A stretch of 64,000 nucleotides of DNA from an uncultured Bacteroidota bacterium (GCA_900545215.1 UQXW01000001.1:61794-125793); one strand, 5' to 3'; counted from the stretch's first letter, positions 1,806 to 60,107 are shown. The notes: generated by a model from the sequence alone, not told the origin. Made by a program: numbers and translations.

Positions 1806-2384
1806 TTGTCTTTCGAGCGAAAGTATATGGAAGAAAAGAAGGAAATCGTCGAATTGGTGGAACTCTGTCGCAGAAACGACAGGGTGGCTCAGCGTAAGAT
1901 TTTCGAGAGGTACAAAGGCGTTATGTTCTCGATTTGCAAACGCTACATGCGAAGTTCCGCCGATGCGGAAGATGCCTTGATTTCGGGCTTTACCAATGCG
2001 TTTCTGAAAATGGATTCGTACAACGGCAGCGGGACTTTCGGCAGTTGGCTGAAAGCCATAATTGTAAACAACTGCATAAACCTCTATAAGCAAGAGCTGA
2101 GACGCAATCAGGTGGAACGAGGGGAAGAAAGAGAGGAGTTCGTCGAAGAGCTTGAGATGGAGGACAGGTTTTCGACAGATGAGTTGTATGATGCGATAAA
2201 TTCCTTGGACGAAAGGTACAGAACGGTGTTCAACATGGTTGTCGTAGATGGTTACAAATATGCGGAGGTTGCCGAATGTTTGAATTCAAAGGTCGAAATC
2301 GTTAAGACGATTCTTTATAGAGCGAAGCAGAAATTGAAGATGTATTTAACTGAAACGGAGAAGAGAAAGGAGAGTAAGTCATGA
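1806..2384 (+). CDS. RNA polymerase sigma-70 factor, ECF subfamily
   Basis: Has a region 2-like stretch (RYMRSSADAEDALISGF) and a region 4 helix-turn-helix (YRTVFNMVVVDGYKYAEVAECLNSKVEIVKTILYRAKQKL). Length is 192 aa. Confidence 0.85.
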   Translation: MSFERKYMEEKKEIVELVELCRRNDRVAQRKIFERYKGVMFSICKRYMRSSADAEDALISGFTNAFLKMDSYNGSGTFGSWLKAIIVNNCINLYKQELRRNQVERGEEREEFVEELEMEDRFSTDELYDAINSLDERYRTVFNMVVVDGYKYAEVAECLNSKVEIVKTILYRAKQKLKMYLTETEKRKESKS

Positions 2385-3262
2385 AGTTGGACGAATTGTT
2401 CAGAAGCAGGTTGCATGATGCCGAAGCAGAGGTGCCGAATGGCGTTTGGGATAAGTTGGAAGCGGGATTGAACGAGGCAATGCCGCAATCGGCTGATGCT
2501 GCTCACTCTTCCGGAACATCGCTTGCCTCTTCGGCAAAGTTTTCGGCAGTGGTCGGAAAAACCATTGCGGGCATTGCATTGGCGGCTTTTGCCGGCGGAG
2601 GTGTTTATCTGTTGAACAGGAGCGAAGTAAAGGAGAAAAAGCCGATTGCAAAGCCGGAAACAAGGATTGTGGAAACCGTGCAGAACACGCCGGAAGCCGA
2701 GACGGAAAAAACGATTGAAGTTCCGAAAAAACGAAACGCCGTTTCAATTTCGCCGAACGCCGATTTATTTTTCTCAAACGCCGTTTCTGAAATCGGAAAC
2801 GAAGAGATGGTGAAAGGGGAGGAGAAAGAGGTTGACCATGTTGCCGAAACGGTGCTGTCTCCCGCAGCAACTGCGGTGCAGAGCGAAAGCATATCGCCGG
2901 CAAAGCCCGTGAAACAGCAACGGCATGAGCAGAGCGTGCCGCAAAAAGAGGTTTGTGAAGCGAAACCGCAGGAAAGACAACGGGCGGAGGCGGCTTTCGA
3001 GCCTGCAATCGGCATACCGAACCTTGTGTCTCCGAATAATGACGGCATAAACGACCGTTTCGAGATACGCAACATCGAGAAATATCCCGATAACGAACTT
3101 GTCATTTTCGACAGAAGGGGAAAGGTGGTTTTCCGAGCGGTTTCATACCCCAACGATTGGGCTGCGGAAGGGCTTGCGGACGGTGTATATTTCTATCGTT
3201 TTGCTGTGAGAGAAGGCTCGAAACAGAAAATATTCACGGGAAATATCAACGTGATGAGATAA
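2381..3262 (+). CDS. anti-sigma-like single-pass membrane protein with T9SS type-B (gliding-motility-associated) C-terminal domain
   Basis: Overlaps the sigma gene by 4 nt (ATGA). It has a conserved N-terminal segment (LFRSRLHDAEAEVPNGVWDKL), one TM helix (IAGIALAAFAGGGVYLL), a low-complexity linker, and a C-terminal IPNLVSPNNDGINDRFEI...YFYRF motif typical of T9SS type-B CTDs. Confidence 0.6.
   Translation: MKLDELFRSRLHDAEAEVPNGVWDKLEAGLNEAMPQSADAAHSSGTSLASSAKFSAVVGKTIAGIALAAFAGGGVYLLNRSEVKEKKPIAKPETRIVETVQNTPEAETEKTIEVPKKRNAVSISPNADLFFSNAVSEIGNEEMVKGEEKEVDHVAETVLSPAATAVQSESISPAKPVKQQRHEQSVPQKEVCEAKPQERQRAEAAFEPAIGIPNLVSPNNDGINDRFEIRNIEKYPDNELVIFDRRGKVVFRAVSYPNDWAAEGLADGVYFYRFAVREGSKQKIFTGNINVMR
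2735..2787. repeat. short dispersed repeat (AAACGCCGTTTC-module family), copy 1, lying in frame inside the CDS
   Basis: acgccgtttcaatttcgccgaacgccgatttatttttctcaaacgccgtttc. The 3' half is near-identical to the copies at 33902-33972 and 8762-8833. Confidence 0.45.
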
Positions 3263-8712: not shown

Positions 8713-8761
8713 TTATATCGCCCAAGCCGCCGAAAATCTTTTTCCTATTTTGAAAAGCAAA

Positions 8762-8833
8762 CACCGTTTCATGAAATTGAAATGGCGGAAGAATTTTTTC
8801 TTTCGGCGATTTATTTTTGCGGAACGGCGTTTT
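8762..8833. repeat. short dispersed repeat (AAACGCCGTTTC-module family), copy 2, intergenic
   Basis: caccgtttcatgaaattgaaatggcggaagaattttttctttcggcgatttatttttgcggaacggcgtttt. About 75% identical to the copy at 33902-33972. Confidence 0.5.
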
Positions 8834-8898
8834 GGTCGAGGGGTGTTTTTATCGGTTGGCGGAATATGGTTTTGCGGCTTTTAAAATGGGTGCTTGAA

Positions 8899-15159: not shown

Positions 15160-15196
15160 GAACTTGATTTCCTGCGATAAAGGATTGTTTTGCCGA

Positions 15197-15267
15197 AACG
15201 CCGTTTCGGTGAAACGAAGAAAGAGAAGAATGGAACGGGGTTTCATTTTCGCGAAACGCCGTTCCAT
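15197..15267. repeat. short dispersed repeat (AAACGCCGTTTC-module family), copy 3, intergenic alaS-typA
   Basis: gaaacgccgtttcggtgaaacgaagaaagagaagaatggaacggggtttcattttcgcgaaacgccgttcc. Its ends are inverted-repeat-like. Confidence 0.45.
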
Positions 15268-15305
15268 CGAAATATAAACAGTCTTAATAATATTCGAAAC
15301 ACAGA

Positions 15306-17120
15306 ATGCAGAACATCAGAAACGTAGCCATAATAGCTCACGTAGATCACGGTAAAACGACCCTCGTGGACAGAATGCTGTATCAGGCAAAGCTTTTCCG
15401 CGACAATCAAGAGACGAAGGAACTTATACTGGATAACAACGATTTGGAGCGTGAACGCGGTATCACGATACTGTCCAAGAACGTTTCAATCAGATACAAG
15501 GGTTACAAAATAAACATTATCGATACTCCCGGCCACAGTGATTTCGGCGGAGAGGTGGAAAGAGTGTTGAATATGGCGGATGGCGTTCTGCTCGTGGTAG
15601 ATGCTTTTGAGGGTCCGATGCCGCAGACCCGTTTTGTGCTGCAAAAGGCAATCGAATTGAACCTCAAACCCATTGTGGTTATAAATAAGGTTGATAAACC
15701 TAATTGCAATCCTGTGGAAACGCAGGAAAAGGTTTTCGACCTTATGTTCTCTCTCGGTGCAACGGAGGAACAGTTGGATTTTCCGACCGTTTATGGCTCA
15801 TCGAAGCAGGGCTGGATGGGTGAAGATTGGGAACACCCTACGGAAGACGTTTCTTATCTTCTGGATATGATAATAAAGCATATTCCTGCTTACAATGTAA
15901 CGGATGGAAATACACAGTTGATGATTTCTTCCTTGGATTACTCCTCGTATGTCGGCAGAATAGCTGTGGGACGTCTTCACAGAGGAACGTTGGTTGCAGG
16001 ACAAGATGTAACGCTTGCAAAAACCAATGGAGAGATGGTGCGTTCCAAAATCAAGGAGCTCTATGTCTTTGAAGGCTTGGCAAAGGAAAAAATCAAGACA
16101 CCGGTGGAAGCGGGGGAGATTTGTGCCATTTTGGGATTGGAAGACTTTGAAATAGGGGACACTGTCTGCGATTTGGAAAATCCTGAACCGTTGAAGCCGA
16201 TAAAGGTCGATGATCCGACGATGAGCATGCTCTTTACGATAAATAATTCGCCTTTTTACGGCAAGGACGGCAAGTATGTGACCTCACGACATCTTCGTGA
16301 GAGATTGTTCGCAGAGTTGGAGAAGAATCTGGCTCTTCGTGTCGAGGAAACCGATTCGCCGGATTCTCTCATCGTTTACGGACGAGGCATTCTTCATCTT
16401 TCGATTCTGATAGAGACCATGCGTCGAGAGGGCTATGAATTGCAGGTCGGACAACCTAAAGTAATCATCAAGGAAATAGATGGTAAGAAATGCGAGCCTG
16501 TGGAGCAGTTGACCATAGTTGTTCCGGAGCAATTCGCCGGTAAGGTGATAGAATTGGTGACTATGAGGAAGGGAGAGATAGACAGCATAGAGGCTCAGGG
16601 GGACAGAAGCCACATCGAGTTCACCATTCCTTCGAGAGGTATCATAGGATTGAGAAACAACATACTTACAGTATCGGAAGGAGAGGCCATAATGGCGAGT
16701 CGTTTGAAAGGATACGAACCTTGGAAGGGCGAAATCACAGGAAGAAGAATGGGAGCTTTGATTGCAAAGGAGACAGGTACCGCAATAGAGTACTCGATAA
16801 ACAAATTGCAGGACAGAGGCACTTTCTTCGTCTCTCCGGGCGACGAGGTATATACCGGAATGGTCGTGGGAGAGGGATTGAGACCCGATGATATTGTGGT
16901 AAACCTGACAATCACCAAGAAATTATCAAACATGCGTTCGGCAGGTGCCGATGAAAAAGTCAATATAGCACCGGCAAAGAAGTTCTCTTTGGAAGAAGCA
17001 ATGGAATATATAGCCGAAGACGAATATCTTGAAATCACTCCGAACCATCTGAGAATACGAAAAATACTTCTTGACGAGGTCGCACGTAAGCGTGCTGCCA
17101 ATTCGACACCTAAGGAGTAA
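15306..17120 (+). CDS. typA: translational GTPase TypA/BipA
   Basis: [25 protein letters not shown]…[14 protein letters not shown]…NKVDK, an EF-G-like domain order. Confidence 0.95.
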
Positions 17121-17127
17121 GAAACAT

Positions 17128-17496
17128 AACGGTGCGACATCGTTCTATCGCTGCGAATTTCCATTCGGAGAGGAAAGTCCGGGCAACGCAGAGCATCATA
17201 CTACCTAACGGGTAGGCGGATTTGCAAAAGTCCGACAGAAAGTGCCGCAGAAAACAACCGCCTTTTCCAAGGTAAGGGTGAAAACGCGAGGTAAGAGCTC
17301 ACGCTACGGCTTAGTGATAAGTCGCAGGGGTAAACCTTATGAGTTGAAAGACCAAATATATCGGAGCATGGGGCTGCTCGTCCTTTTCCGAGGGGTAGGT
17401 CGTTAGAGGCTTGTCGCAAGGCAGGCAGTAGATTAATGATAGAACGGTTTGCAAATGCAAACCCGACAGAACCCGGCTTACAGATGTCGCACCGTT
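17128..17496 (+). ncRNA. rnpB: RNase P RNA, bacterial type A
   Basis: The P1 helix pairs cggtgcgacatc (17130-17141) with gatgtcgcaccg (17483-17494). It has the conserved P4 GAGGAAAGTCCGGGC, an AGGGTGAAA...GGTAAGAGC core and the 3' ACAGAACCCGGCTTA. Confidence 0.85.
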
Positions 17497-17557
17497 TCTT
17501 TTGAAGATTTCGTTGTTTTGCGGAAACAAATCGAGTGAAACGAGTGTCATAGCAGCG

Positions 17558-18112
17558 ATGAACCTTTCGGACGAAGAAATAATAAGAAGGTGTCTCAAAA
17601 AAGACGCAAAGGCTCAACGGGCTCTTTATGACAGGTATTCCCCTCTCATGCTCGGCTTGTGCATTCGCTATGCACGTTGCCGTCAGGACGCAGAGGATAT
17701 TTTCCAAGAGGCTTTCATTAAGGCATTTTCACAGCTTGACAAGTATTCTTTCAAGGGAGCGTTCGGCGGTTGGCTGAGACGTCTTTTCGTCAACTGTGCT
17801 TTGAATTACTATCGTTACGATAAATCGCATTTTTTTTGCGATGTACAGGATTGCCCCTCCCTTGTGGAAAAGCCTGTGCAACTCGACAATTTTTCGACCG
17901 CCGAGATACTCGATATGGTTGCGTCTTTGCCGGAGAATTGCAGGACGGTATTCAATCTTATCGAAATAGAGGGCTATTCTTACAAGGAATTATCGGAAAT
18001 GTTGCAGTTGAGCGAGAGTACGTTGAGAGGATTGAATTTCAAGGCAAAGCAATTACTGAGAGAAAAAATAAACAAGAAAAACATTCAAACCGAAATCCGA
18101 AACGCAGATTAA
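17558..18112 (+). CDS. RNA polymerase sigma-70 factor, ECF subfamily
   Basis: Region 2 (RYARCRQDAEDIFQEAFIKAF) and region 4 (CRTVFNLIEIEGYSYKELSEMLQLSESTLRGLNFKAKQLL). The ORF-track start at 17501 abuts the rnpB 3' end, so the internal Met (MNLSDEE) is preferred. Confidence 0.8.
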   Translation: MNLSDEEIIRRCLKKDAKAQRALYDRYSPLMLGLCIRYARCRQDAEDIFQEAFIKAFSQLDKYSFKGAFGGWLRRLFVNCALNYYRYDKSHFFCDVQDCPSLVEKPVQLDNFSTAEILDMVASLPENCRTVFNLIEIEGYSYKELSEMLQLSESTLRGLNFKAKQLLREKINKKNIQTEIRNAD

Positions 18113-18146: not shown

Positions 18147-18986
18147 ATGGATAAGAATTACGAACAGTTCAGAGAGCGATTACATGATTACGAACAGCAA
18201 CCCGATGAACGCTTATGGAAAAACCTGTCCAAGGAATTGAACAAGCCGAAACACACCTACCTTACCGTCTCCGTCATCGTGGCAACGGTTTTGCTGGCAG
18301 GCTTCGTCGGCATGTTGGCATTGGCTCCGGAAAAAGCGGAAAAGGAGATTGCAAAGACAGAGACCTATCCTGAACCGACCGTTCAAAGACAGCTTGCAGA
18401 CGAAACGGCAATCGAGCAAAATGATACGCCGAAAAAAATTACCGGAACGATGATTCGCAAAAATGAAACGGCGAAAGAAAATACAGTTATTGCAGAGGTT
18501 GACAATCAGGTTGTTGAAACAATAAATCCTACGACCGTAACCAATCATCACGAGACAGCCGTCATGCCTCGCAATCAAGTCGCCGGAATACCGAAAGTCG
18601 TTTCGACAACTCTTCCCGCACAAAAGTCGGCGGCAAAGCCTGCAAACACCGAAATCATTGAGCCTGAGGCAGGCACGAAGACCTTTTCCGATATTCGTCC
18701 GGAGGACATCGTACGCACGCAACTCTTTATTCCTAATGCTTTCACGCCCGGAGAAAGCACCAACAACATATTCAAACCCGCATACGCCGAACTCTCCGCA
18801 TACAGAATGGACATTTACAACAGTCGCGGCGTACTTATATTCACCGCCAACGACATAAACCATGGTTGGGACGGCACATTCAACGGCGGAGATGCCATGC
18901 AGGGAGGATACTATTACATAGTGAAATTCACAGACACCAAAGGGAACACACATACTCAAAAGGGCAGCCTTATGCTTATACGATAA
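18147..18986 (+). CDS. anti-sigma-like single-pass membrane protein with T9SS type-B C-terminal domain (paralog of 2381-3262)
   Basis: The N-terminal motif (FRERLHDYEQQPDERLWKNL) is shared with the paralog; one TM helix (VSVIVATVLLAGFVGMLAL); a Thr/Pro-rich linker; a C-terminal IPNAFTPGESTNNIF...YYYIVKF domain. Confidence 0.6.
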   Translation: MDKNYEQFRERLHDYEQQPDERLWKNLSKELNKPKHTYLTVSVIVATVLLAGFVGMLALAPEKAEKEIAKTETYPEPTVQRQLADETAIEQNDTPKKITGTMIRKNETAKENTVIAEVDNQVVETINPTTVTNHHETAVMPRNQVAGIPKVVSTTLPAQKSAAKPANTEIIEPEAGTKTFSDIRPEDIVRTQLFIPNAFTPGESTNNIFKPAYAELSAYRMDIYNSRGVLIFTANDINHGWDGTFNGGDAMQGGYYYIVKFTDTKGNTHTQKGSLMLIR

Positions 18987-22424: not shown

Positions 22425-24602
22425 GTGAAGCGAATGGAAACCAATGTACAACTCGATTTGGCTCGCAGGTATGTGGAGCAGACCGACAGGAATATCTTTC
22501 TTACGGGAAAGGCAGGCACGGGTAAAACCACCTTTCTTAAAGGTCTGAAAGCAAGTCTGCATAAGCGTTTTGTCATTCTTGCTCCCACGGGCATAGCTGC
22601 CCTGAATGCCGAAGGGCAGACGATACATTCCTTCTTTCAACTCTCCTTTGCACCATACGTTCCGGGTTGCAGGACGGAGCAGAAACGTTTTCGCAAGGAG
22701 AAAATCAACATCATACGCAGTTTGGATTTGCTTGTGATAGACGAAATCTCCATGGTGAGGGCGGATGTTCTGGATCAGATGGACTTCGTTTTGCGAAAAA
22801 TACGTTACAGGCACAGAAACAAGGCTTTCGGTGGTGTACAGCTGTTGTTGATCGGGGATTTGAGTCAGTTGCCTCCCGTTGCGGTGGAGGAGGAATGGGA
22901 TTTGCTTTCGCAATACTATGCAACGCCTTATTTCTTTTCCTCTCACGCATGGCAGGCTTCCGAGTTTTATACCATAGAACTCCAACACATCTACCGCCAA
23001 TCGGACAAAACCTTCATCGATATATTGAACCGTATCAGGGACAACCGCATTTCGCATGACATCATAGAGAAACTCAACAGCCGATACGTTCCCGATATAT
23101 TGGATAAGAAGAACGAAGGCAGCGTGATACTCTGTACGCACAACCGAAAGACCAAGGCGATAAACGATAAAAGGCTTTCCGAAATAGAGAGCAGGAGTTA
23201 TTTCTACCAATGTGAAGTGGAGGGGGATTTCGACCCGAAAACATATCCAAATTCCGAAATTCTCGAACTCAAAGAAGGCTCGCAGGTCATGTTCATAAAG
23301 AACGATTACCAACACAAGGCAAATGAAAGGGACTATTACAACGGTTCCATAGGTAAGGTGGTGGAATTGGAGGATAAGAAAGTGGTTGTACGCTTGCAGG
23401 AAAACGGTAAGGAGGTAAGCGTCGAGCCTTACACATGGGAGAGATACCGTTACAGCATGGATAAGAGGACGATGGAAATAGTTCAAGAGGTCATCGGCTC
23501 TTTCAAACAGTACCCTTTGAAATTGGCATGGGCGATAACCATACACAAAAGTCAGGGCTTGACTTTCGAGAAAGCCGTGGTGGATGCGGATCGGTCCTTT
23601 ACGCACGGACAGTATTACGTTGCGTTGAGCCGTTGCAAGACTTTGGAAGGCTTGACTCTCGCTTCGCCATTTGTGCCGGAGGCAGTCATAACGGATGAAA
23701 AGGTGAATGATTTCAACCATTCGCAGAAGGATAATCGTGCAGACGAGGACACCTTCGAGCAAGACCGCTTTGAATATTATTTCCACAGTCTCGAAGAAAT
23801 CTTCGACTTTTCCGCCTTGCAGGCAGCCCTCGACGAACTCGACAAATTCAACATCGGACAAGTTGCACGAAAGGAAGCCGAAATCTCATCGGCATTTGCG
23901 AGTGTATCCGAGGCGGTAAAGGAAAACATAAGCGGGGTTTCCGAACGTTTTTCCGTGCAACTGCGTAGGATTTGCAGAGATAGCGAAATGTTGAAGGAGA
24001 GATGCGGTAAGGCAGGTGTTTATTTCTTGGAGCAAATGTCGCTTTGTCTGACTTTGTTGCAGGCATTGGACGGTTTGAATTGGGACGAATACGGCAACAG
24101 CGAGGAAACGGAAGAGCTCATCAAACGTTTCGGAAACGAGGTGGAACTCAAATACAGATTGCTTCGTTACTTTCGAGAAAACGACTTCGACATTGCAGCA
24201 TATACCGAGCTGAAAAACAAGACTATTGCGGAGGGAGACAGAATGCAGTGGACGGCTTACAAAGATTTCATCGGAAAAGGCAAAACCGAATCGGCTATTC
24301 GGGAAAATGAAACGCCGCAAGAAAATAATGAAACGTCGCAAAAATTTGCCGGAACGGCGAAAGAGAAAAACGAGGAGTTGGAGATGGACGATTTGTTCGC
24401 TGCATTGAAGCGATGGAGACGCAGTCGAGCCGAAGAGGAGGGCTTGCCTGCGTATTGCATCTTGTCCCAAAAAGCCATAGAGGGCATAGCGAAATCACGT
24501 CCTCGAACACAGGAGGAATTACTCGCCATAAAAGGCATAGGAAAGAAAACATTGGAGAAGTACGGAGATACTCTTCTCGAATTGATAGCCGAAAAAGGCT
24601 GA
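22425..24602 (+). CDS. PIF1/RecD-like ATP-dependent DNA helicase with C-terminal HRDC domain
   Basis: Walker A FLTGKAGTGKTT and Walker B LLVIDEISMV; a PIF1-like core (WAITIHKSQGLTF, YVALSRC); a C-terminal ~70-aa HRDC-like segment (LFAALKRWRRSRAEEEGLPAYCILSQKAIEGIAK…IKGIGKKTLEKYG). Confidence 0.8.
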   Translation: MKRMETNVQLDLARRYVEQTDRNIFLTGKAGTGKTTFLKGLKASLHKRFVILAPTGIAALNAEGQTIHSFFQLSFAPYVPGCRTEQKRFRKEKINIIRSLDLLVIDEISMVRADVLDQMDFVLRKIRYRHRNKAFGGVQLLLIGDLSQLPPVAVEEEWDLLSQYYATPYFFSSHAWQASEFYTIELQHIYRQSDKTFIDILNRIRDNRISHDIIEKLNSRYVPDILDKKNEGSVILCTHNRKTKAINDKRLSEIESRSYFYQCEVEGDFDPKTYPNSEILELKEGSQVMFIKNDYQHKANERDYYNGSIGKVVELEDKKVVVRLQENGKEVSVEPYTWERYRYSMDKRTMEIVQEVIGSFKQYPLKLAWAITIHKSQGLTFEKAVVDADRSFTHGQYYVALSRCKTLEGLTLASPFVPEAVITDEKVNDFNHSQKDNRADEDTFEQDRFEYYFHSLEEIFDFSALQAALDELDKFNIGQVARKEAEISSAFASVSEAVKENISGVSERFSVQLRRICRDSEMLKERCGKAGVYFLEQMSLCLTLLQALDGLNWDEYGNSEETEELIKRFGNEVELKYRLLRYFRENDFDIAAYTELKNKTIAEGDRMQWTAYKDFIGKGKTESAIRENETPQENNETSQKFAGTAKEKNEELEMDDLFAALKRWRRSRAEEEGLPAYCILSQKAIEGIAKSRPRTQEELLAIKGIGKKTLEKYGDTLLELIAEKG

Positions 24603-32245: not shown

Positions 32246-33472
32246 ATGGAAGAGCAGTTGCAGACCAAGAAACGGGTGATGGTGCTGACGCAACCCTTGT
32301 GGAACAATTACGGTTGCCTTTTGCAGGCGTATGCTTTGCAGAAAGTGATTGAGCGTTCGGGCTTTGAGGTGTGTACAGACCGTCATGAGAGGCATTTCGC
32401 TTCGTTTGCCGAGAATGCAAAGGACGATTTGAAACGCTTTGCGGCTCGTTTTGTTTTGCAAAGAAAGAGCGTGAAGGTATTCCCATATCGTTTCGATGCG
32501 GAGACTTGGCGGAAGGTGTCGGCGAATACGCAGAAGTTCGTCGATGAAAGGCTGTCAACCGTTGATTTTTTCGATGAAAAAGGAAAACCGAAAGAGGACA
32601 CGGGCAGGTGGGATTGCTTTGTGTTTGGTTCCGACCAGATTTGGCGGGATTCTTATGGCAGAGTGGAGACTTATTTCGGCGATTTCTTGGAGGGAAAAGG
32701 GGTGAAGAAGATTGCGTACGCTGCTTCTTTCGGTTTGGAAAGCTGGCAATTCACGCCCGAAAGGACGAAACGTTTGTTCGATTTGGCTCGTTCCTTCTCC
32801 GGAATAGGGGTTCGTGAGGAGGATATGGCGGATTTGATGCACAAGAACTTCTCTTCCGTTGCGGGCAAAGAGGCAGATAAGTTGGAAATCACTCATGTGG
32901 CAGACCCTACTTTGCTTTTGACAGCCGAGGATTACCGTTTGTTGGCAGAGGATTGGAGGAAAGAGTGCGATCAGGCAGCGGAAACGCTTTTTCAAAAGAA
33001 AGGAAAGGGTATTTTGGCTGTGTATGTGCTGGATTGGACGAATGAAAAGAGGCGTATGATGGAAAGGATTTGCGGTTACATGAACCTGCAAGCCGTATTT
33101 CTCAATCCCGAAAGGCGTTTGGGCGTGGAAACAAGGCATTTCGAGGGAGAAAAATCTGTGTTCCGAAGCGTGGAAAGTTGGCTTTCGTTAATGCAAAGTG
33201 CTGATTTCGTCCTGACTGACTCCTATCACGGAACGATATTTTCCCTTCTTTTCGATAGGAAGTTCGCTTTGGTAATGAACAACGGGCGGGGAATTTCCCG
33301 TTTTCGCACGTTGGACGAATTGTTCGACCTGTCTCCTTATACCGTTTCGCAGGAAGAGGATTTGGAAAAGGTATTTTCATTCACAGGAAGAGACGAAGCG
33401 GCTTTTCAAAACTCACTTGCAAGGATACGCAACCGTTCTTTCGACTTTTTGAAACAACATCTCGGCAAATGA
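32246..33472 (+). CDS. polysaccharide pyruvyl transferase family protein
   Basis: The N-terminal NYGCLLQAYALQ motif and the C-terminal DSYHGTIFSL motif are typical of the WcaK/CsaB-type pyruvyl transferase family. Confidence 0.75.
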   Translation: MEEQLQTKKRVMVLTQPLWNNYGCLLQAYALQKVIERSGFEVCTDRHERHFASFAENAKDDLKRFAARFVLQRKSVKVFPYRFDAETWRKVSANTQKFVDERLSTVDFFDEKGKPKEDTGRWDCFVFGSDQIWRDSYGRVETYFGDFLEGKGVKKIAYAASFGLESWQFTPERTKRLFDLARSFSGIGVREEDMADLMHKNFSSVAGKEADKLEITHVADPTLLLTAEDYRLLAEDWRKECDQAAETLFQKKGKGILAVYVLDWTNEKRRMMERICGYMNLQAVFLNPERRLGVETRHFEGEKSVFRSVESWLSLMQSADFVLTDSYHGTIFSLLFDRKFALVMNNGRGISRFRTLDELFDLSPYTVSQEEDLEKVFSFTGRDEAAFQNSLARIRNRSFDFLKQHLGK

Positions 33473-34452
33473 AAAAGAGTATGGATAAGACTGAAACCAT
33501 GGATATATCCGTTGTCATACCGTTGTATAACAAGGAAAGCAGCATTCGGACGGCTGTGGAGTGTGCTTTGAGGCAGACTTGTTCCGTCAGGGAGGTGATA
33601 ATAATCGATGACGGTTCGACGGACGAGAGTGCAAAGGTGGTGAAAGGGCTTATCAAAGAATGCTTTTGGCGTGGCGACGGAAGAATAAGGCTGGTTTCGC
33701 AGGCAAATTCGGGCGTTTCTGCAGCCAGAAACACCGGAATACGGGAGGCAAAGGGAGAATGGATAGCATTCTTGGACGCAGATGATATTTGGAAAAGCAA
33801 TCATATCGAACAAATCACCCGTTTGCATGAGGCTTTTCCGCAGGCTGCGGTTCTCTCTACGAACTATGAAATCGTTACTTCGGCGGAAGTGCAAAATCCG
33901 AACACCGTTTCGGAAAAACGGAACGGCGATTCGATTTTTTCTTTCGACGATTTATTTTCCTCAAACGCCGTTGCGTCGCAAGAGGGTTGCGAGGGCTTCA
34001 TCGTGAATGACTTTTACGGCAGATTGTTGTTCGGAAAGCATGTCGTCTGGTCATCGACCGCCGTGGTGAAAAGGTCGGCTCTCTCGGAGATAGGGGGCTT
34101 CGATACACGCATGACCAAGGGAGAGGATTTGGATTGTTGGGAACGATTGTACGAAAAGGAAATCTTTGCCCAAAGCAATGCCATGACTGCATTCTATATA
34201 TCCGATCCGCTTGATGGAAATGCCACAAGGAAAGCCGGCAATGTGCAGACATACGCCGTATATCTCAATAAGGCGGCTTTCAGATGGCGAAGTGATAAGG
34301 ATTTGTATCGTTTCAAAGTGGTATATGGCTATTTGAAAATGTTCATTTTGCAGCACCAATTCCGCAACTTGGCATTATTGCTCTTGAAACACAACGTTCT
34401 GTTTTTGAAAATCCCGATGTACATATTCAAAAAGCGGAAAAGAGGTTTTTGA
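33469..34452 (+). CDS. family-2 glycosyltransferase
   Basis: ISVVIPLYNKESSI…IIIDDGSTDES…AFLDADD (DxD) GT-A signature. Overlaps the upstream gene by 4 nt. Confidence 0.85.
   Translation: MKKSMDKTETMDISVVIPLYNKESSIRTAVECALRQTCSVREVIIIDDGSTDESAKVVKGLIKECFWRGDGRIRLVSQANSGVSAARNTGIREAKGEWIAFLDADDIWKSNHIEQITRLHEAFPQAAVLSTNYEIVTSAEVQNPNTVSEKRNGDSIFSFDDLFSSNAVASQEGCEGFIVNDFYGRLLFGKHVVWSSTAVVKRSALSEIGGFDTRMTKGEDLDCWERLYEKEIFAQSNAMTAFYISDPLDGNATRKAGNVQTYAVYLNKAAFRWRSDKDLYRFKVVYGYLKMFILQHQFRNLALLLLKHNVLFLKIPMYIFKKRKRGF
33902..33972. repeat. short dispersed repeat (AAACGCCGTTTC-module family), copy 4, lying in frame inside the GT2 CDS
   Basis: acaccgtttcggaaaaacggaacggcgattcgattttttctttcgacgatttattttcctcaaacgccgttgc. 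It encodes …SEKRNGDSIFSFDDLFSSNAVAS…. Confidence 0.5.
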
Positions 34453-43054: not shown

Positions 43055-44134
43055 ATGAAACAATTAGAAATACATGGTTACAAATCGATTAAGGATTTGG
43101 TTCTTCCGCTGAGAGAAATCAATATTCTGATTGGCGCAAACGGAAGCGGTAAGAGCAACTTGCTGTCATTCTTTGTATTTTTGAAAACTTTCTATAATAG
43201 AAATCTTCAAGAGTCTGTGGCTTTATCAGGAGGCATGGATAAGTTTTTGTATATGGGGCGTAAGATTACCTCTGAGATAAGTATAAAATTATTATTCCCG
43301 AATAATGCCTATTCTTTTACACTTGTTGCCGGTGAAGACGCTTTTGTGATAACCAAAGAGGGACTATGGTATGAGGCTAATCCGCACATGCCTAATCCTA
43401 TTGATATAGCATCTTTTTCCAAAGAGTCGGGATTACAATATGCCACGGTACCCCGCGCAGATTATATCCGTAATTATTTAAGTGAACTAAAGAAATATCA
43501 CTTTCATGATACGAGTAAGAACTCACCCTTTACAAAGGTGTCAAATGTAAAAACAGGAGGTCATTATTTGCTTCCGCAAGGAGAAAATTTGGCTGCTTTT
43601 CTATACACTGTTAGTCGGCAGACTCCAAAGAATTACAATTTGATTGTTCAGACTATACAAACCGTTGCCCCTTATTTCAGAGATTTTTATTTGAAACCTG
43701 ATGAGAATGGGAATTTGTCATTAAAATGGCAGGATAAATACAGCGAGAACATTTATGGAGCAACCGATTTATCAGATGGAACAATTCGTTTTATTGCCTT
43801 GACAACCTTATTTATGCAACCCCAATTACCGCAGACCATCATTTTGGATGAGCCGGAATTGGGACTTCACCCTGTAGCCATTGCCAAATTGAGCGGCATG
43901 ATAAAATCGGTTGCAGCCAAGGAGTGTCAAATCATTGTAGCAACGCAATCTACCGATTTGATCAGTTACTTTGATGCAGAGGATATTATTACAGTGGATC
44001 AAATTAATGGCGAAAGTATCTATAAGCGACTTTCTTCTGACGAGTTAGAAGATTGGTTGGAAGAATACACGATAGATGAACTGTGGAAACGGAATATGCT
44101 TCATAATGGGCAGCCGAATAATCAAGAGTTATGA
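43055..44134 (+). CDS. AAA_21/ABC-type (OLD/AbiLi/RloA-like) ATPase
   Basis: Walker A GANGSGKSN; signature-like LSDGTIRFIALTTLF; Walker B IILDEPELGLHP; H-loop ATQS. Confidence 0.8.
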   Translation: MKQLEIHGYKSIKDLVLPLREINILIGANGSGKSNLLSFFVFLKTFYNRNLQESVALSGGMDKFLYMGRKITSEISIKLLFPNNAYSFTLVAGEDAFVITKEGLWYEANPHMPNPIDIASFSKESGLQYATVPRADYIRNYLSELKKYHFHDTSKNSPFTKVSNVKTGGHYLLPQGENLAAFLYTVSRQTPKNYNLIVQTIQTVAPYFRDFYLKPDENGNLSLKWQDKYSENIYGATDLSDGTIRFIALTTLFMQPQLPQTIILDEPELGLHPVAIAKLSGMIKSVAAKECQIIVATQSTDLISYFDAEDIITVDQINGESIYKRLSSDELEDWLEEYTIDELWKRNMLHNGQPNNQEL

Positions 44135-44787
44135 GCAGAGTAATTGTTATTTGCGAAGGCGAAACCGAACGAGAATTTTGCCAAACGCTCCTTTTCGGAT
44201 ATTTTGCGAGCATTGGTAAATATATAGAAGCACCATTGATAAAGCGCTCGCATGGCGGAATCGTTCGTTGGGAAATATTGAAAAAGCAAATTGAAACAAC
44301 TCTACGCAAAGAACAAGATGCAATAGTAACACTGCTTATTGATTATTATGGGTTGCATGAAAAGCACTATTTTCCGGGGTGGGACGAAGCTGAAAAAATT
44401 ATAGATAAAATAAAACGTGTATCCTATCTGGAAGATACTATGAGGCAGGATATAGATGATAGTATTCGTTATCGTTTTATTCCTTACTTGCAGTTACATG
44501 AGTTTGAAGCTCTGCTTTTTTGTGATGCGGAGATATTTAAAAATATGATTCCCGAAAAAGAATTGATAGGTCTTCAGGAATTGCAGACCGTGATTGATAG
44601 TAATCCCAATCCCGAGTTAATTAACACAAGGAAAGAAAACACGCCCTCTCATAGATTGTCGCGTATAATAAAAGGTTATAATAAAATCGTTTACGGAAAT
44701 CTGATAGCTGAACGTATTGGTTTGTCAACCATGCGTTCAAAATGTCTTCGATTTAATAATTGGTTGAATGAATTGGAAAAAGCATAA
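44131..44787 (+). CDS. DUF4276/RloB-like protein (TOPRIM-like N-terminal CEGETE motif), partner of the upstream ATPase
   Basis: The start overlaps the ATPase stop (ATGA). N-terminal RVIVICEGETEREF and a later acidic LLIDYYG motif. Length is 218 aa. Confidence 0.65.
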   Translation: MSRVIVICEGETEREFCQTLLFGYFASIGKYIEAPLIKRSHGGIVRWEILKKQIETTLRKEQDAIVTLLIDYYGLHEKHYFPGWDEAEKIIDKIKRVSYLEDTMRQDIDDSIRYRFIPYLQLHEFEALLFCDAEIFKNMIPEKELIGLQELQTVIDSNPNPELINTRKENTPSHRLSRIIKGYNKIVYGNLIAERIGLSTMRSKCLRFNNWLNELEKA

Positions 44788-44909: not shown

Positions 44910-45030
44910 ATACCGTTCGGTGAAACGCCGTTCTGTTGAAAATAAAACGCCGATTGGCGACAGCGAAATGGCGAAACAGAAAATTAAAACGCCGATTTGG
45001 ATAGAATTTTTTCTCATCGTTGAGTTTGAG
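44910..45030. repeat. composite copy of the AAACGCCGTT-module dispersed repeat (copy 5), intergenic
   Basis: gtgaaacgccgttc…aaaacgccgattgg…aatggcgaaacagaaaatt…aaaacgccgatttgg…gaattttttctcatcg. The modules match copies 2 and 3 but are rearranged. Confidence 0.4.
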
Positions 45031-45165: not shown

Positions 45166-46185
45166 ATGCTTACCTCCATTTATGTAAATGATTATAAACA
45201 GAAAAAAGCATCATATCTCGCTATTGCCAAGGCTCACTTGGCAGGGTGGAGCTACTCGGATGAACGCATTTTGGGAGTAACAAATGCAAACAGAAAGCAT
45301 AATCTCTCGACAAGAGATTATTGTTCTCTTCATCCATTTAATGGTTCGTATAGTTTCTGGATTGATGATAAGTTGACCTTAAAATATATTCTGAGTGGGA
45401 CGAAAGCAGGTAAATATATGCCTGAATACTATTTTCAAATATCTGATAATGGCAGTATAATTCCACTGATGGACTTGGATGCGTGTTATGCTATGCAAGG
45501 TCTGGATGGTATTGTCTCTTTATTGGAAAGCAAAGGTACGCTTGCATTCAAATTGATAAAGAGTAGTTTAGGTGTAGGCTTCTACCGAGTGGAATACAAT
45601 GATGGGGTTTATTACATGAATGGCGAAAAAATGAATCGAGAGCAATTCATGTCAAAGATATGTTCACTTAGAAACTATATAGTTACGGAGTTTTTATTCC
45701 CACATCCCGAAATAGCGAAATTATGTGATAAGTCGGTCGGATGTTTACGTTATATAGTCGGTCGGAATAAAAAAGGTGAAATTCAAGACATATACTCTTT
45801 CATGCGTTTTGGAACAAGTAAATCTAAGTATGTGGAGAACTACAATTCAGGAGGAGTTTTGTCAATTATCCATGATGGGAAATATATAGGCGGAAATGTC
45901 TTGGATTTTGAAACCAATACAAATTGTAAGATAGAAAGACATCCTGATAACGACGTTGTGCTGAAAAGTGAAATTCCTCATTGGGATATAATAGTTCAGG
46001 CGGCACATGAGATTGCGGACGTTATGCCACAGTTGTCATATATGGGAATTGATTTTTGTATAACGAATACAGATAAGGTAAAAGTAATAGAGATAAATTC
46101 TCTTACCAGTTTGGATTCTTTGCAGACGGATATGTCTATTTTTGATACTTCTGCCGGTGTTTTCTTTCGTGAAAGATTAAGATGA
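45166..46185 (+). CDS. sugar-transfer-associated ATP-grasp (ATPgrasp_ST-like) protein
   Basis: 339 aa. The layout and motifs (…GVGFYRVEY…, C-terminal IEINSLTSLDSLQ) resemble ATP-grasp enzymes found in polysaccharide loci. Confidence 0.6.
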   Translation: MLTSIYVNDYKQKKASYLAIAKAHLAGWSYSDERILGVTNANRKHNLSTRDYCSLHPFNGSYSFWIDDKLTLKYILSGTKAGKYMPEYYFQISDNGSIIPLMDLDACYAMQGLDGIVSLLESKGTLAFKLIKSSLGVGFYRVEYNDGVYYMNGEKMNREQFMSKICSLRNYIVTEFLFPHPEIAKLCDKSVGCLRYIVGRNKKGEIQDIYSFMRFGTSKSKYVENYNSGGVLSIIHDGKYIGGNVLDFETNTNCKIERHPDNDVVLKSEIPHWDIIVQAAHEIADVMPQLSYMGIDFCITNTDKVKVIEINSLTSLDSLQTDMSIFDTSAGVFFRERLR

Positions 46186-59987: not shown

Positions 59988-60054
59988 GGCAGTATGGAAA
60001 AAGTGCCACTTTTAGGGGTGAAAAGTGGCACTTTTTAGGGCAATAAGTGGCACT
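59988..60054 (+). repeat. three direct repeats of a palindromic ~16-bp motif (AAAAGTGsCACTTTT) with a 22-23-bp period, upstream of the HU-like genes
   Basis: Cores at 59990-60004 (perfect palindrome AAAAGTGCCACTTTT), 60012-60027 and 60035-60050, each followed by AGGG/GAGG. Confidence 0.7.
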
Positions 60055-60107
60055 TTTTTGAGGCAAAGCCAAGGTTTTACAATCAATACATAAAGACTTT
60101 CAATGAT

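What the first reader, a model, noticed from the sequence alone, without database searches (positions are those of the whole stretch)
33902..33972. The dispersed repeat is inserted IN FRAME in two unrelated genes (GT2 glycosyltransferase and an anti-sigma-like protein), adding a similar peptide
Within the GT2 CDS the element encodes …NTVSEKRNGDSIFSFDDLFSSNAVASQEG…. Within the anti-sigma-like CDS (copy at 2735-2787) it encodes …KKRNAVSISPNADLFFSNAVSEIGNEE…. Both reading frames stay open through the element, and both peptides share a (D)LF(F/S)SNAV core. This mirrors Rickettsia-palindromic-element-type behaviour, where mobile repeats create new peptide segments inside proteins. As far as I know it is not a described phenomenon in Bacteroidota.
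Basis: seen in the sequence. Interest (0 to 1): 0.7.

Follow-up and report, generated by a model that had tools for sequence, protein, structure and literature searches.

The report
Palindromic repeat inserted in-frame in genes
A short palindromic repeat that is scattered through the genomes of a few uncultured gut-type Bacteroidales also sits in frame inside at least four genes of this window. There it adds 14-25 disordered amino acids, much as the Rickettsia palindromic elements do, but it is an unrelated family built from 21-base modules.

Summary
The GT2 gene (33469-34452) and the ECF-sigma-linked CHU_C membrane-protein gene (2381-3262) each carry an in-frame copy of a real dispersed repeat.

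- **The repeat.** It is a nested-palindromic array of up to four 21-nt modules, each a 13-nt palindrome (AAACGSCGTTT or GAATCGSCGATTC) plus an 8-nt AT-rich spacer. Most of the 116+ stretches matching a 25-nt core pattern across 185,579 genomes came from four related Bacteroidales MAGs. About 69 kb from more distant relatives gave no hit.
- **Match to the family.** A profile built only from intergenic copies of another genome hits the GT2 copy at E=6e-13 and the CHU_C copy at E=9e-12.
- **Indels.** Syntenic GT2 orthologs in contigs without the repeat lack 21 aa there (63 nt, three modules). A 98%-identical strain lacks exactly 14 aa (42 nt, two modules) in the CHU_C protein.
- **Structure.** Both inserts are predicted disordered: a loop in the GT-A fold and an inter-domain linker.
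- **More copies.** Two further in-frame copies lie in the window, in a PIF1-HRDC helicase and in a second CHU_C protein.
- **Limits.** The behaviour is RPE-like, but the family is new and the way it spreads is unknown. I found no terminal inverted repeats, target-site duplications or filled/empty sites.

This is a new variant of a known phenomenon, of moderate interest.

The parts
33894..33981 (+). Repeat copy inside the GT2 CDS, read as AAC GSC GWT (N-[AG]-[VD]). It holds about 3 modules plus a terminal half-palindrome and encodes residues about 143-171 (PNTVSEKRNGDSIFSFDDLFSSNAVAS).
   Evidence: Repeat family D1, 72% identity to the copy at 8753. nhmmer 33906-33974, E=6.4e-13, with a profile of foreign intergenic copies. 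21-aa gap in insert-less orthologs. pLDDT<50 for residues 146-173. Hairpin potential is lost, z=-0.95.
33469..34452 (+). GT2-family glycosyltransferase gene (327 aa) in a polysaccharide locus, downstream of a pyruvyl transferase gene (32246-33472). It is the host of the repeat copy above.
   Evidence: PF00535, 6e-33. AlphaFold2 (AF2) model with mean pLDDT 81 and a GT-A fold matching TarP, SpsA and K4CP. Fifteen ortholog clusters, fourteen of 327 aa and P0015 of 317 aa with a shorter N-terminus.
2714..2801 (+). Repeat copy inside the CHU_C protein CDS, in the same codon phase as the GT2 copy. Three modules start at 2735, 2756 and 2777. It encodes about NAVSISPNADLFFSNAVSEIG (residues about 119-140).
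   Evidence: nhmmer 2720-2787, E=9.1e-12. Tandem Repeats Finder (TRF) period 21, 2.6 copies at 2734-2787. Exact 42-nt deletion in strain L004. It lies in the coil region 73-213 of the model.
2381..3262 (+). Gene for a 293-aa membrane protein: N-terminal cytoplasmic segment, TM helix at about residues 48-72, a long disordered linker, and a C-terminal CHU_C (T9SS type B) domain. Its start overlaps the stop of ECF sigma gene 1806-2384, so it is a putative anti-sigma factor by position only.
   Evidence: Pfam CHU_C, 2.5e-22, and sigma-70 r2/r4 for the upstream ORF. Synteny conserved in L004-L007, L128 and L129. AF2 model.
24286..24357 (+). Additional in-frame repeat copy inside the PIF1/AAA_30-HRDC helicase gene (22425-24602). 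It is read in the other usable phase (GAA ACG SCG = E-[TS]-[AP]) and gives ...TESAIRENETPQENNETSQKFAGTAKEKNEE... in the linker before the HRDC domain.
   Evidence: nhmmer E=2.1e-5. The ortholog in L003 has three perfect 21-nt units encoding NESAKEE x3. Orthologs without the repeat peptide have a linker about 20 aa shorter. Domain limits from Pfam.
18394..18485 (+). Degenerate in-frame repeat copy inside a second ECF-sigma-linked CHU_C protein gene (18147-18986; sigma gene 17501-18112).
   Evidence: Weak nhmmer hit 18401-18456, E=6e-3, but the orthologous site in L005 (13019-13093) scores E=2e-16. Codon view; Pfam.
8753..8840 (+). Intergenic copy downstream of the PAD_porph gene. It is collinear with the GT2 copy and forms a nested palindrome.
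   Evidence: nhmmer E=2.8e-13. Fold -29.3 kcal/mol, z=-3.7.
15186..15273 (+). Intergenic copy just upstream of the BipA/TypA-like GTPase gene (15306-17120), with two strong hairpins.
   Evidence: nhmmer E=8e-5. Fold -38.4 kcal/mol, z=-5.5.
44917..45010 (+). Intergenic copy in the polysaccharide/defence region, between 44131-44787 and 45166-46185.
   Evidence: nhmmer E=1.2e-4. Fold z=-2.8.

Best explanation
The window comes from an uncultured Bacteroidales bacterium whose lineage carries a family of short, non-coding, nested-palindromic dispersed repeats. The canonical element is about 65-90 nt long and consists of up to four 21-nt modules. Each module is a 13-nt palindrome (AAACGSCGTTT, or GAATCGSCGATTC in the sister species) followed by an 8-nt A/T-rich spacer. 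Most copies are intergenic and can form long hairpins, so the family behaves like a REP- or MITE-type selfish repeat.

In an ancestor of the window species and its sister species, copies entered tolerant parts of several genes. These were a surface loop of a GT2 glycosyltransferase, the linkers of two ECF-sigma-linked CHU_C membrane proteins, and the linker before the HRDC domain of a PIF1-type helicase. In the sister species a glycogen synthase was also hit.

A module is 21 nt, which is 7 codons, so a whole number of modules never shifts the reading frame. Copies appear to survive only in codon phases that lack stop codons and encode polar, disorder-compatible peptides (N-A-D-S-F-S-S or N-E-S-A-K-E-x). 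Once inside a gene, the copy evolves as a fast-changing disordered segment. The palindrome decays, and module number changes by recombination or slippage between the direct repeats.

**Shown here:** family membership of the CDS copies, the indels, the predicted disorder, the periodicity, and the loss of hairpin potential.

**Inferred:** the direction of the event (an insertion), the peptide-level filter, and above all the copying mechanism, which is unknown.
For: **A real, lineage-restricted family**
About 70 came from four related Bacteroidales MAGs; the rest were single hits in unrelated taxa.
- The repeat profile found nothing in about 69 kb from more distant syntenic relatives.

**Architecture**
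- Palindrome cores are 21 nt apart in 66/78 and 56/64 neighbouring pairs, and arrays usually stop at 4 units.

**CDS copies belong to the family**
- A profile built from foreign intergenic copies only scores E=6e-13 (GT2), 9e-12 (CHU_C), 2e-5 (helicase) and, for the second CHU_C site in L005, 2e-16.

**Evidence for insertion**
- Syntenic insert-less GT2 orthologs are 21 aa shorter at the site.
- The helicase linker is about 20 aa shorter in orthologs without the repeat peptide.

**Whole-module changes**
- A 42-nt deletion in L004, a 42-nt indel between MAG187 and W3P37.035, 3.5 tandem units in L005 and 3 perfect units in L003.

**Tolerated location**
- GT2 residues 146-173 have pLDDT<50 within an otherwise confident GT-A fold.
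- The CHU_C insert lies in a 140-residue coil.

**Relaxed constraint and decay**
- Amino-acid identity of the GT2 insert between species is 43%, against 69-75% in the flanks.
- The CHU_C copy has degraded beyond detection in L129.
- CDS copies in the window fold no better than shuffles (z=-0.95, -0.72, +0.08), against -2.8 to -5.5 for the intergenic copies.

**No sign of constraint on the DNA motif**
- Arrays are 84% identical between two close species (about 89% if the 42-nt gap is excluded), against 89% for other intergenic DNA and 93.5% for coding DNA.

**Codon-phase filter**
- Six CDS copies use only two phases and never the Arg-Arg-Phe phase. That unused phase is the one most often free of stops: 55/70 copies on the T-rich strand and 51/70 on the A-rich strand.
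Against: - No terminal inverted repeats, target-site duplication or partner transposase was identified.
- No filled/empty polymorphism was found. All arrays in about 48 kb aligned between MAG187 and W3P37.035 (90-98% identical) are at the same positions. Recent mobility is therefore not shown.
- The phase used in GT2 and CHU_C#1 contains stops in more than 90% of intergenic copies (open in 4 of 70). The inserted copies must have been of the stop-free CTTTCG subtype or were edited afterwards.
- For the CHU_C protein, the 36%-identity orthologs have a linker of similar length with a vaguely similar peptide (ISPIIDSFIAE), so insertion versus replacement cannot be resolved there.
- The GT2 copy in the sister species is still a near-perfect hairpin (-40 kcal/mol, z=-7.1). 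Simple decay does not predict this.
- All sequences are metagenome assemblies.
Confidence: 0.8

Rival explanations
1. The coding copies are heptad tandem repeats that grew in place. A short seed motif inside each linker or loop expanded by replication slippage into 21-nt (7-aa) repeats, and no complete element was ever inserted.
For: Module number changes in place: 3 perfect units in the L003 helicase, 3.5 units in the L005 CHU_C gene, and 42-nt indels. TRF reports a 21-nt period at 2734-2787.
Against: The GT2 copy is not a simple tandem. Its four different modules are collinear with the intergenic element at 8753-8840 and with CAZSFV intergenic copies, including the GGCGAAAGAA-TTTT-TTCTTTCGCC hairpin module. 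The same unit and order at more than 100 intergenic loci needs a copying process. Slippage explains the later variation but not the origin.
Confidence: 0.09
2. The motif is a functional DNA or RNA site, for example phased binding sites for a dimeric DNA-binding protein, or a structured RNA or terminator. On this view it is selected wherever it occurs, including inside genes, in the way DNA uptake sequences are.
For: Each module is a palindrome with half-sites, and the 21-nt spacing equals two helical turns. Within the fast-evolving CHU_C linker the repeat part is better conserved (61%) than the flanking linker (46-47%). The L003 GT2 copy keeps a perfect hairpin.
Against: Arrays are no better conserved than other intergenic DNA between close species. 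CDS copies in the window have lost their hairpins, and the L129 CHU_C copy has decayed. The family is absent from the relatives sampled that keep the same genes. No Rfam family matches.
Confidence: 0.07
3. The peptide similarity is ancestral or convergent low-complexity protein sequence, and the DNA resemblance is incidental. This is the refutation scenario the first reader proposed.
For: Distant CHU_C orthologs show ISPIIDSFIAE aligned to ISPNADLFFSN.
Against: Those orthologs have no repeat motif at the DNA level. GT2 orthologs from repeat-free contigs lack the segment entirely. The match to intergenic copies is at the DNA level, with E about 1e-12.
Confidence: 0.03

Closest known systems
Rickettsia palindromic elements (RPE-1 to RPE-10; Ogata et al. 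2000, as summarised in PMC10969869)
   Same: Both are short palindromic dispersed repeats found in intergenic DNA and, unusually often, in frame inside unrelated housekeeping genes. Both add a short extra peptide at positions compatible with the fold. Here 4 of 7 copies in the window are in CDS, and about half of RPEs from some families are.
   Different: The phylum differs, and no relationship to RPEs was found, though RPE sequences were not compared here. RPEs are single units of about 100-150 bp. This element is 65-90 nt and is made of 21-nt modules, so unit number can change in frame. The peptides are 7-aa periodic and predicted disordered. The host is not a reduced intracellular genome.
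BrickBuilt MITE of Porphyromonas gingivalis (PMC4596501)
   Same: It is the only described Bacteroidota element with similar anatomy: a dispersed element containing a short-period tandem array, present in about 19 copies.
   Different: BrickBuilt has 23-nt units (not a multiple of 3), up to 22.8 units, conserved leader and tail segments with IS-like terminal inverted repeats, and is reported as strictly intergenic. The present family has 21-nt palindromic units, usually 4 at most, no recognisable leader, tail or terminal inverted repeats, and it occurs in genes.
REP/BIME elements and REPINs (with RAYT transposases) of Proteobacteria (PMC3733652)
   Same: Both are 20-40-nt imperfect palindromes, clustered in either orientation, with positions stable between close relatives, mostly extragenic, and with lineage-specific sequence flavours.
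   Different: There is no GTAG/CGTC head. The spacing is a strict 21 nt. No RAYT gene could be looked for. REPs are by definition extragenic.
Intragenic ERIC/RU elements of enterobacteria and QMITE1 of Coxiella (PMC2759123, PMC5896051)
   Same: These are small mobile repeats with open frames that are occasionally found fused in frame to host ORFs.
   Different: They are longer MITE-like units with terminal inverted repeats. They lack 7-codon periodicity and belong to other phyla.

Membership tests
Rickettsia palindromic elements (RPE) | Sequence homology to one of the RPE families; restricted to Rickettsia | not tested
   No RPE sequences were available to compare. The host is Bacteroidales, and unit length and organisation differ. 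It is therefore treated as an analogue, not a member.
Rickettsia palindromic elements (RPE) | Palindromic element able to form a stable hairpin | tested here: met
   Intergenic copies have z=-2.8 to -5.5. The L003 GT2 copy folds at -40.4 kcal/mol, z=-7.1.
Rickettsia palindromic elements (RPE) | In-frame insertion in unrelated protein genes, absent from orthologs, at structurally tolerant sites | tested here: met
   GT2 has a 21-aa indel against syntenic orthologs, and the helicase has an indel of about 20 aa. Disordered loop and linker. Translation of the inserts is not shown.
MITE (miniature inverted-repeat transposable element) | Terminal inverted repeats matching an IS, and target-site duplications | tested here: inconclusive
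   Inspection of 15 full-length MAG187 copies and about 28 CAZSFV/window copies with flanks showed no conserved termini or duplications. The element is internally palindromic, which hides any terminal inverted repeats. No empty site was available.
MITE (miniature inverted-repeat transposable element) | Insertion polymorphism between close relatives (evidence of mobility) | tested here: not met
   All arrays in about 48 kb aligned between MAG187 and W3P37.035 are positionally conserved; the only difference is one 42-nt module indel.
REP/RAYT system | A cognate RAYT (Y1 transposase) gene flanked by REPs; a GTAG/CGTC tetranucleotide head | not tested
No GTAG/CGTC head is visible in the consensus.
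BrickBuilt MITE (P. gingivalis) | 23-nt tandem units with leader and tail segments carrying terminal inverted repeats; strictly intergenic | tested here: not met
   The unit is 21 nt, no leader or tail is present, and copies occur in CDS. BrickBuilt features are from PMC4596501.
Glycosyltransferase family 2 (host gene) | GT-A fold with DXD motif; Pfam PF00535 | tested here: met
   PF00535, 6e-33. D103, D105 and D106 are invariant. The AF2 model matches TarP, SpsA and K4CP.
Anti-sigma factor (host gene 2381-3262) | A recognisable anti-sigma N-terminal domain binding the cognate ECF sigma | tested here: inconclusive
   Only CHU_C is detected by Pfam. The gene overlaps the stop of the ECF sigma gene and has one TM helix. 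Two such sigma/CHU_C pairs exist in the window.

The most novel reading that the evidence does not exclude
The 7-codon periodicity is not an accident. The family may be adapted to persist inside genes, with its coding copies kept 'fresh' by gene conversion or re-insertion from the dispersed pool. Support for this is thin but real: the sister species' GT2 copy is still a perfect 60-nt hairpin, and its helicase copy has three identical units. If so, the element would generate heptapeptide linkers of variable unit number in envelope, capsule and DNA-repair proteins of gut Bacteroidales, making it a repeat-driven source of protein length variation.
Probability: 0.12. Interest if true: 0.75.

Novelty: new variant of a known kind. 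Interest (0 to 1): 0.5.

Why it matters
In-frame colonisation of genes by selfish palindromic repeats is best documented in Rickettsia and a few other Proteobacteria. My limited literature searches found no report of it in Bacteroidota, whose one comparable described element, BrickBuilt, is reported as strictly intergenic.

This family shows the same behaviour in free-living, gut-type Bacteroidales. It also has a simple built-in reason for staying in frame: its modules are 21 nt long. That offers a tractable case for asking how non-coding repeats become protein segments, which reading phases are tolerated, and how fast such segments decay.

There is also a practical point. These repeats cause length variants and possible frameshifts in MAG gene calls, so annotators should be aware of them.

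Tried and rejected
- **Empty versus filled sites for intergenic copies.** The spacer downstream of the PAD gene in L128, L129 and L005 is rearranged and does not align with the window. The L128/L129 difference near a tRNA and restriction-modification island was not a clean indel. The spacer between the S1-protein and Na/H-exchanger genes showed only a chance AACGCCGTT in L003.
- **ORF context of about 75 exact-pattern copies.** Nearly all long spanning ORFs were artefacts: non-ATG upstream extensions or junk frames. Only L116, L097 and L070 looked genuine.
- **Concerted evolution.** I considered whether the CGTTTC versus CGATTC 'flavour' follows the genome rather than the locus. I dropped this as evidence because allele L127, from the window's own clade, carries the CGATTC flavour.
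- **Promoter idea.** Some units contain TAnnTTTG-like strings, but the 21-nt spacing does not fit the known -33/-7 geometry (from my own knowledge). I did not pursue it.
- **Other checks.** Rfam has no family for the repeat. Organism names could not be recovered from cluster look-ups. Literature searches for REP or MITE elements in genes of Bacteroidales found nothing specific.

Full report
**1. The observation**

ORF 33469-34452(+) encodes a 327-aa protein containing ...NTVSEKRNGDSIFSFDDLFSSNAVASQEG.... ORF 2381-3262(+) encodes a 293-aa protein containing ...KKRNAVSISPNADLFFSNAVSEIGNEE.... At the DNA level the two sites share GATTTATTTTYCTCAAACGCCGTT in the same codon phase. This string matches only at these two sites in the window and in none of 100 shuffles. 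Pfam identifies the first protein as a family-2 glycosyltransferase (PF00535, 6e-33). The second has a C-terminal CHU_C/T9SS domain, and its start codon overlaps the stop of an ECF sigma gene at 1806-2384. 'Anti-sigma-like' is a positional inference only.

**2. The repeat is a real family with a modular anatomy**

The repeat finder links the two coding sites to intergenic copies at 8753-8840, 15188-15272 and 44915-45010. AACGSCGTT occurs 7 times in the window against 0.55 expected. Within each copy the palindrome cores lie 21 nt apart, and Tandem Repeats Finder reports a 21-nt period at 2734-2787.

I scanned one genome from each of 185,579 species with the 25-nt degenerate core CGATTYWTTTTNNNNNAACGSCGWT. 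About 70 came from four related Bacteroidales MAGs:
- MAG187 (JAEDJL01)
- W3P37.035 (SFPR01)
- SRP350583_co2_555 (CAZSFV01)
- UMGS879 (URCX01)

The remainder were single hits in unrelated phyla, as expected by chance.

In those MAGs the cores are 21 nt apart in 66/78 and 56/64 neighbouring pairs, and arrays usually contain no more than four units. Each unit is a 13-nt palindrome, AAAACGSCGTTTT in MAG187 and GAATCGSCGATTC in CAZSFV, followed by an 8-nt A/T-rich spacer that occurs in either orientation. Longer nested palindromes therefore arise. The intergenic copies in the window fold far better than shuffled controls (z=-3.7, -5.5, -2.8). No Rfam family matches.

**3. The coding copies belong to this family**

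I built a profile from 23 intergenic CAZSFV copies only, excluding all window sequence and all CDS copies. Its matches were:

| Site | Coordinates | E-value |
|---|---|---|
| GT2 copy | 33906-33974 | 6.4e-13 |
| CHU_C copy | 2720-2787 | 9.1e-12 |
| Intergenic copy | 8764-8832 | 2.8e-13 |

It found nothing in about 69 kb from more distant relatives that keep the same genes (L006, L007, L124-L126).

The same search revealed two more in-frame copies in the window:
- **24286-24357**, inside a PIF1-HRDC helicase gene (E=2e-5).
- **18394-18485**, inside a second ECF-sigma-linked CHU_C gene. This hit is weak here (E=6e-3), but the orthologous site in L005 scores E=2e-16.

So four of the seven copies in this window are inside genes.

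**4. Insertion test**

*GT2.* Fifteen ortholog clusters at 69-96% identity all carry the segment, at identical length and register. Homologs at 47-51% identity are 291 aa long and have a 21-aa gap exactly at the repeat. These homologs are orthologs by context: pyruvyl transferase, GT2, and in L124 a following UDP-glucose dehydrogenase, as in the window. Twenty-one amino acids is 63 nt, which is three modules.

*Helicase.* Orthologs without the repeat peptide have a linker about 20 residues shorter before the HRDC domain.

*First CHU_C protein.* The linker does not align with the 36%-identity orthologs, and total length is similar (290 vs 293 aa). Their DNA has no repeat motif, so insertion cannot be separated from replacement. 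Three other observations still bear on it:
- Strain L004 (98% identical) lacks exactly 42 nt between the direct repeats AACGCCGTTTC at 2735 and 2777.
- The sister species (L005/L116) has 3.5 tandem units encoding N[AG]DSFSS.
- Lineage L129 keeps the length but has lost the motif.

**5. Where the inserts sit**

AlphaFold2 gives a confident GT-A fold for the GT2 protein (mean pLDDT 81), matching TarP, SpsA and K4CP. Residues 146-173 (nt 33904-33987) have pLDDT<50 and no secondary structure, and they lie between strand 128-137/helix 138-142 and strand 177-179. In the CHU_C protein, residues 73-213 are coil between the TM helix and the β-domain, and the repeat encodes residues about 119-140. The helicase copy lies between the helicase core and the HRDC domain, which starts at residue 656.

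**6. Evolution after insertion**

- Between the window and the sister species, the GT2 insert is 64% identical in DNA and 43% in protein, against 70-74% and 69-75% for the flanks.
- The window's CDS copies no longer fold better than shuffles (z=-0.95, -0.72, +0.08).
- Between MAG187 and W3P37.035, arrays are 84% identical (about 89% without one 42-nt gap). Other intergenic DNA is 89% identical and coding DNA 93.5%. The motif therefore shows no sign of purifying selection.

These results fit a selfish or neutral repeat that decays.

Two observations do not fit simple decay. The sister species' GT2 copy is still a near-perfect hairpin (-40.4 kcal/mol, z=-7.1). Its helicase copy has three identical units. 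Recent slippage or gene conversion is possible but untested.

**7. Reading phases**

Six coding copies are considered: GT2, CHU_C#1, L070 glycogen synthase, helicase, CHU_C#2, and the unverified L097 ORF. Three are read as AAC GSC GWT (N-A-D/V...) and three as GAA ACG SCG (E-T/S-P/A...). None uses the CGS CGW phase (Arg-Arg-Phe).

Among 70 intergenic copies, the Arg-Arg-Phe phase is the one most often free of stops, at 55/70 on the T-rich strand and 51/70 on the A-rich strand. The N-A-D phase is open in only 4/70. By my own rough arithmetic, weighting phases by how often they are open, three of six copies in the N-A-D phase has a probability of about 2e-4. Avoiding Arg-Arg-Phe six times has a probability of about 0.007. 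The sample is small and the ascertainment is uneven. Still, the pattern suggests a filter acting on the encoded peptide, not only on the absence of stops.

**8. What is not shown**

- I found no terminal inverted repeats, target duplications or partner transposase.
- I found no filled/empty site. All arrays in about 48 kb aligned between two 90-98%-identical MAGs are at conserved positions.
- The copying mechanism is therefore unknown, and the family may be old and inactive.
- Translation of the inserts is not shown.
- All sequences are metagenome assemblies.

**9. Comparison with known elements**

A 2024 review states that in-frame fusions by intragenic MITEs occur (ERIC, BOX, QMITE1, Anabaena MITEs) and that RPEs do this at unusually high frequency. 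It also states that the BrickBuilt element of Porphyromonas gingivalis is strictly intergenic (PMC10969869). BrickBuilt has 23-nt units with leader and tail segments carrying terminal inverted repeats (PMC4596501).

The present element behaves like an RPE, but it is not a member of that family and is not BrickBuilt. It fails the MITE mobility test applied here, and the terminal-repeat/target-duplication test was inconclusive. My literature searches found no description of such elements inside genes of Bacteroidota, though these searches were limited.

**Verdict**

It is a new, modular variant of a known phenomenon and is moderately interesting.

Noticed in passing
window 24286-24357 (in ORF 22425-24602): A third in-frame copy of the repeat lies in the linker of a PIF1/AAA_30-HRDC helicase. 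The ortholog in L003 (about 455-540) has three perfect 21-nt units encoding NESAKEE x3.
   Followed up: yes
window 18394-18485 (in ORF 18147-18986): A fourth, degenerate in-frame copy lies in a second ECF-sigma/CHU_C gene pair (sigma gene 17501-18112). The ortholog L005:13018-13093 carries a strong copy.
   Followed up: partly
L070 5819-5930 (CAZSFV010000004.1): In the sister species the repeat lies inside a glycogen-synthase/phosphorylase fusion gene. Pfam Glycogen_syn positions 1-322 and 403-588 fall in two ORFs that overlap within the repeat and differ in frame. This is either a real frameshift or an assembly error in an A8 run.
   Followed up: partly
L097 2470-2494 (CAZSFV010000043.1): An ORF running off the contig end reads through a repeat copy as ...ETPFGENESAKEKNETPKEKNESA.... 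It has no Pfam match, so it is only a candidate for a further in-frame copy.
   Followed up: partly
window 59998-60067: A different intergenic array has the same design: three 13-nt palindromes AAAGTGSCACTTT spaced 22 nt apart (TRF period 22, 3.1 copies). It occurs only at this place in the window.
   Followed up: partly
window 17132-17496: Bacterial RNase P RNA class A (Rfam RF00010, 248 bits), between the BipA-like GTPase gene and the second ECF sigma gene.
   Followed up: no
L003 10391-10478: The GT2 coding sequence of the sister species contains an almost perfect hairpin of about 60 nt (-40.4 kcal/mol, z=-7.1) at the orthologous insert. The window's copy has lost its hairpin. Gene conversion or recent homogenisation is possible.
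   Followed up: partly
L128 714-6635 vs L129 3403-6164: Strains of the window's clade carry different restriction-modification systems (type I versus an AccI-like type II) at the same site, next to a tRNA gene upstream of the M1 peptidase/ECF sigma/CHU_C cluster.
   Followed up: no
window 33469-34452 and orthologs P0008-P0014: GT2 alleles within the clade are mosaic. The N-terminal and C-terminal halves show different relationships, and there are two distinct insert haplotypes. This suggests recombination in the polysaccharide locus.
   Followed up: no
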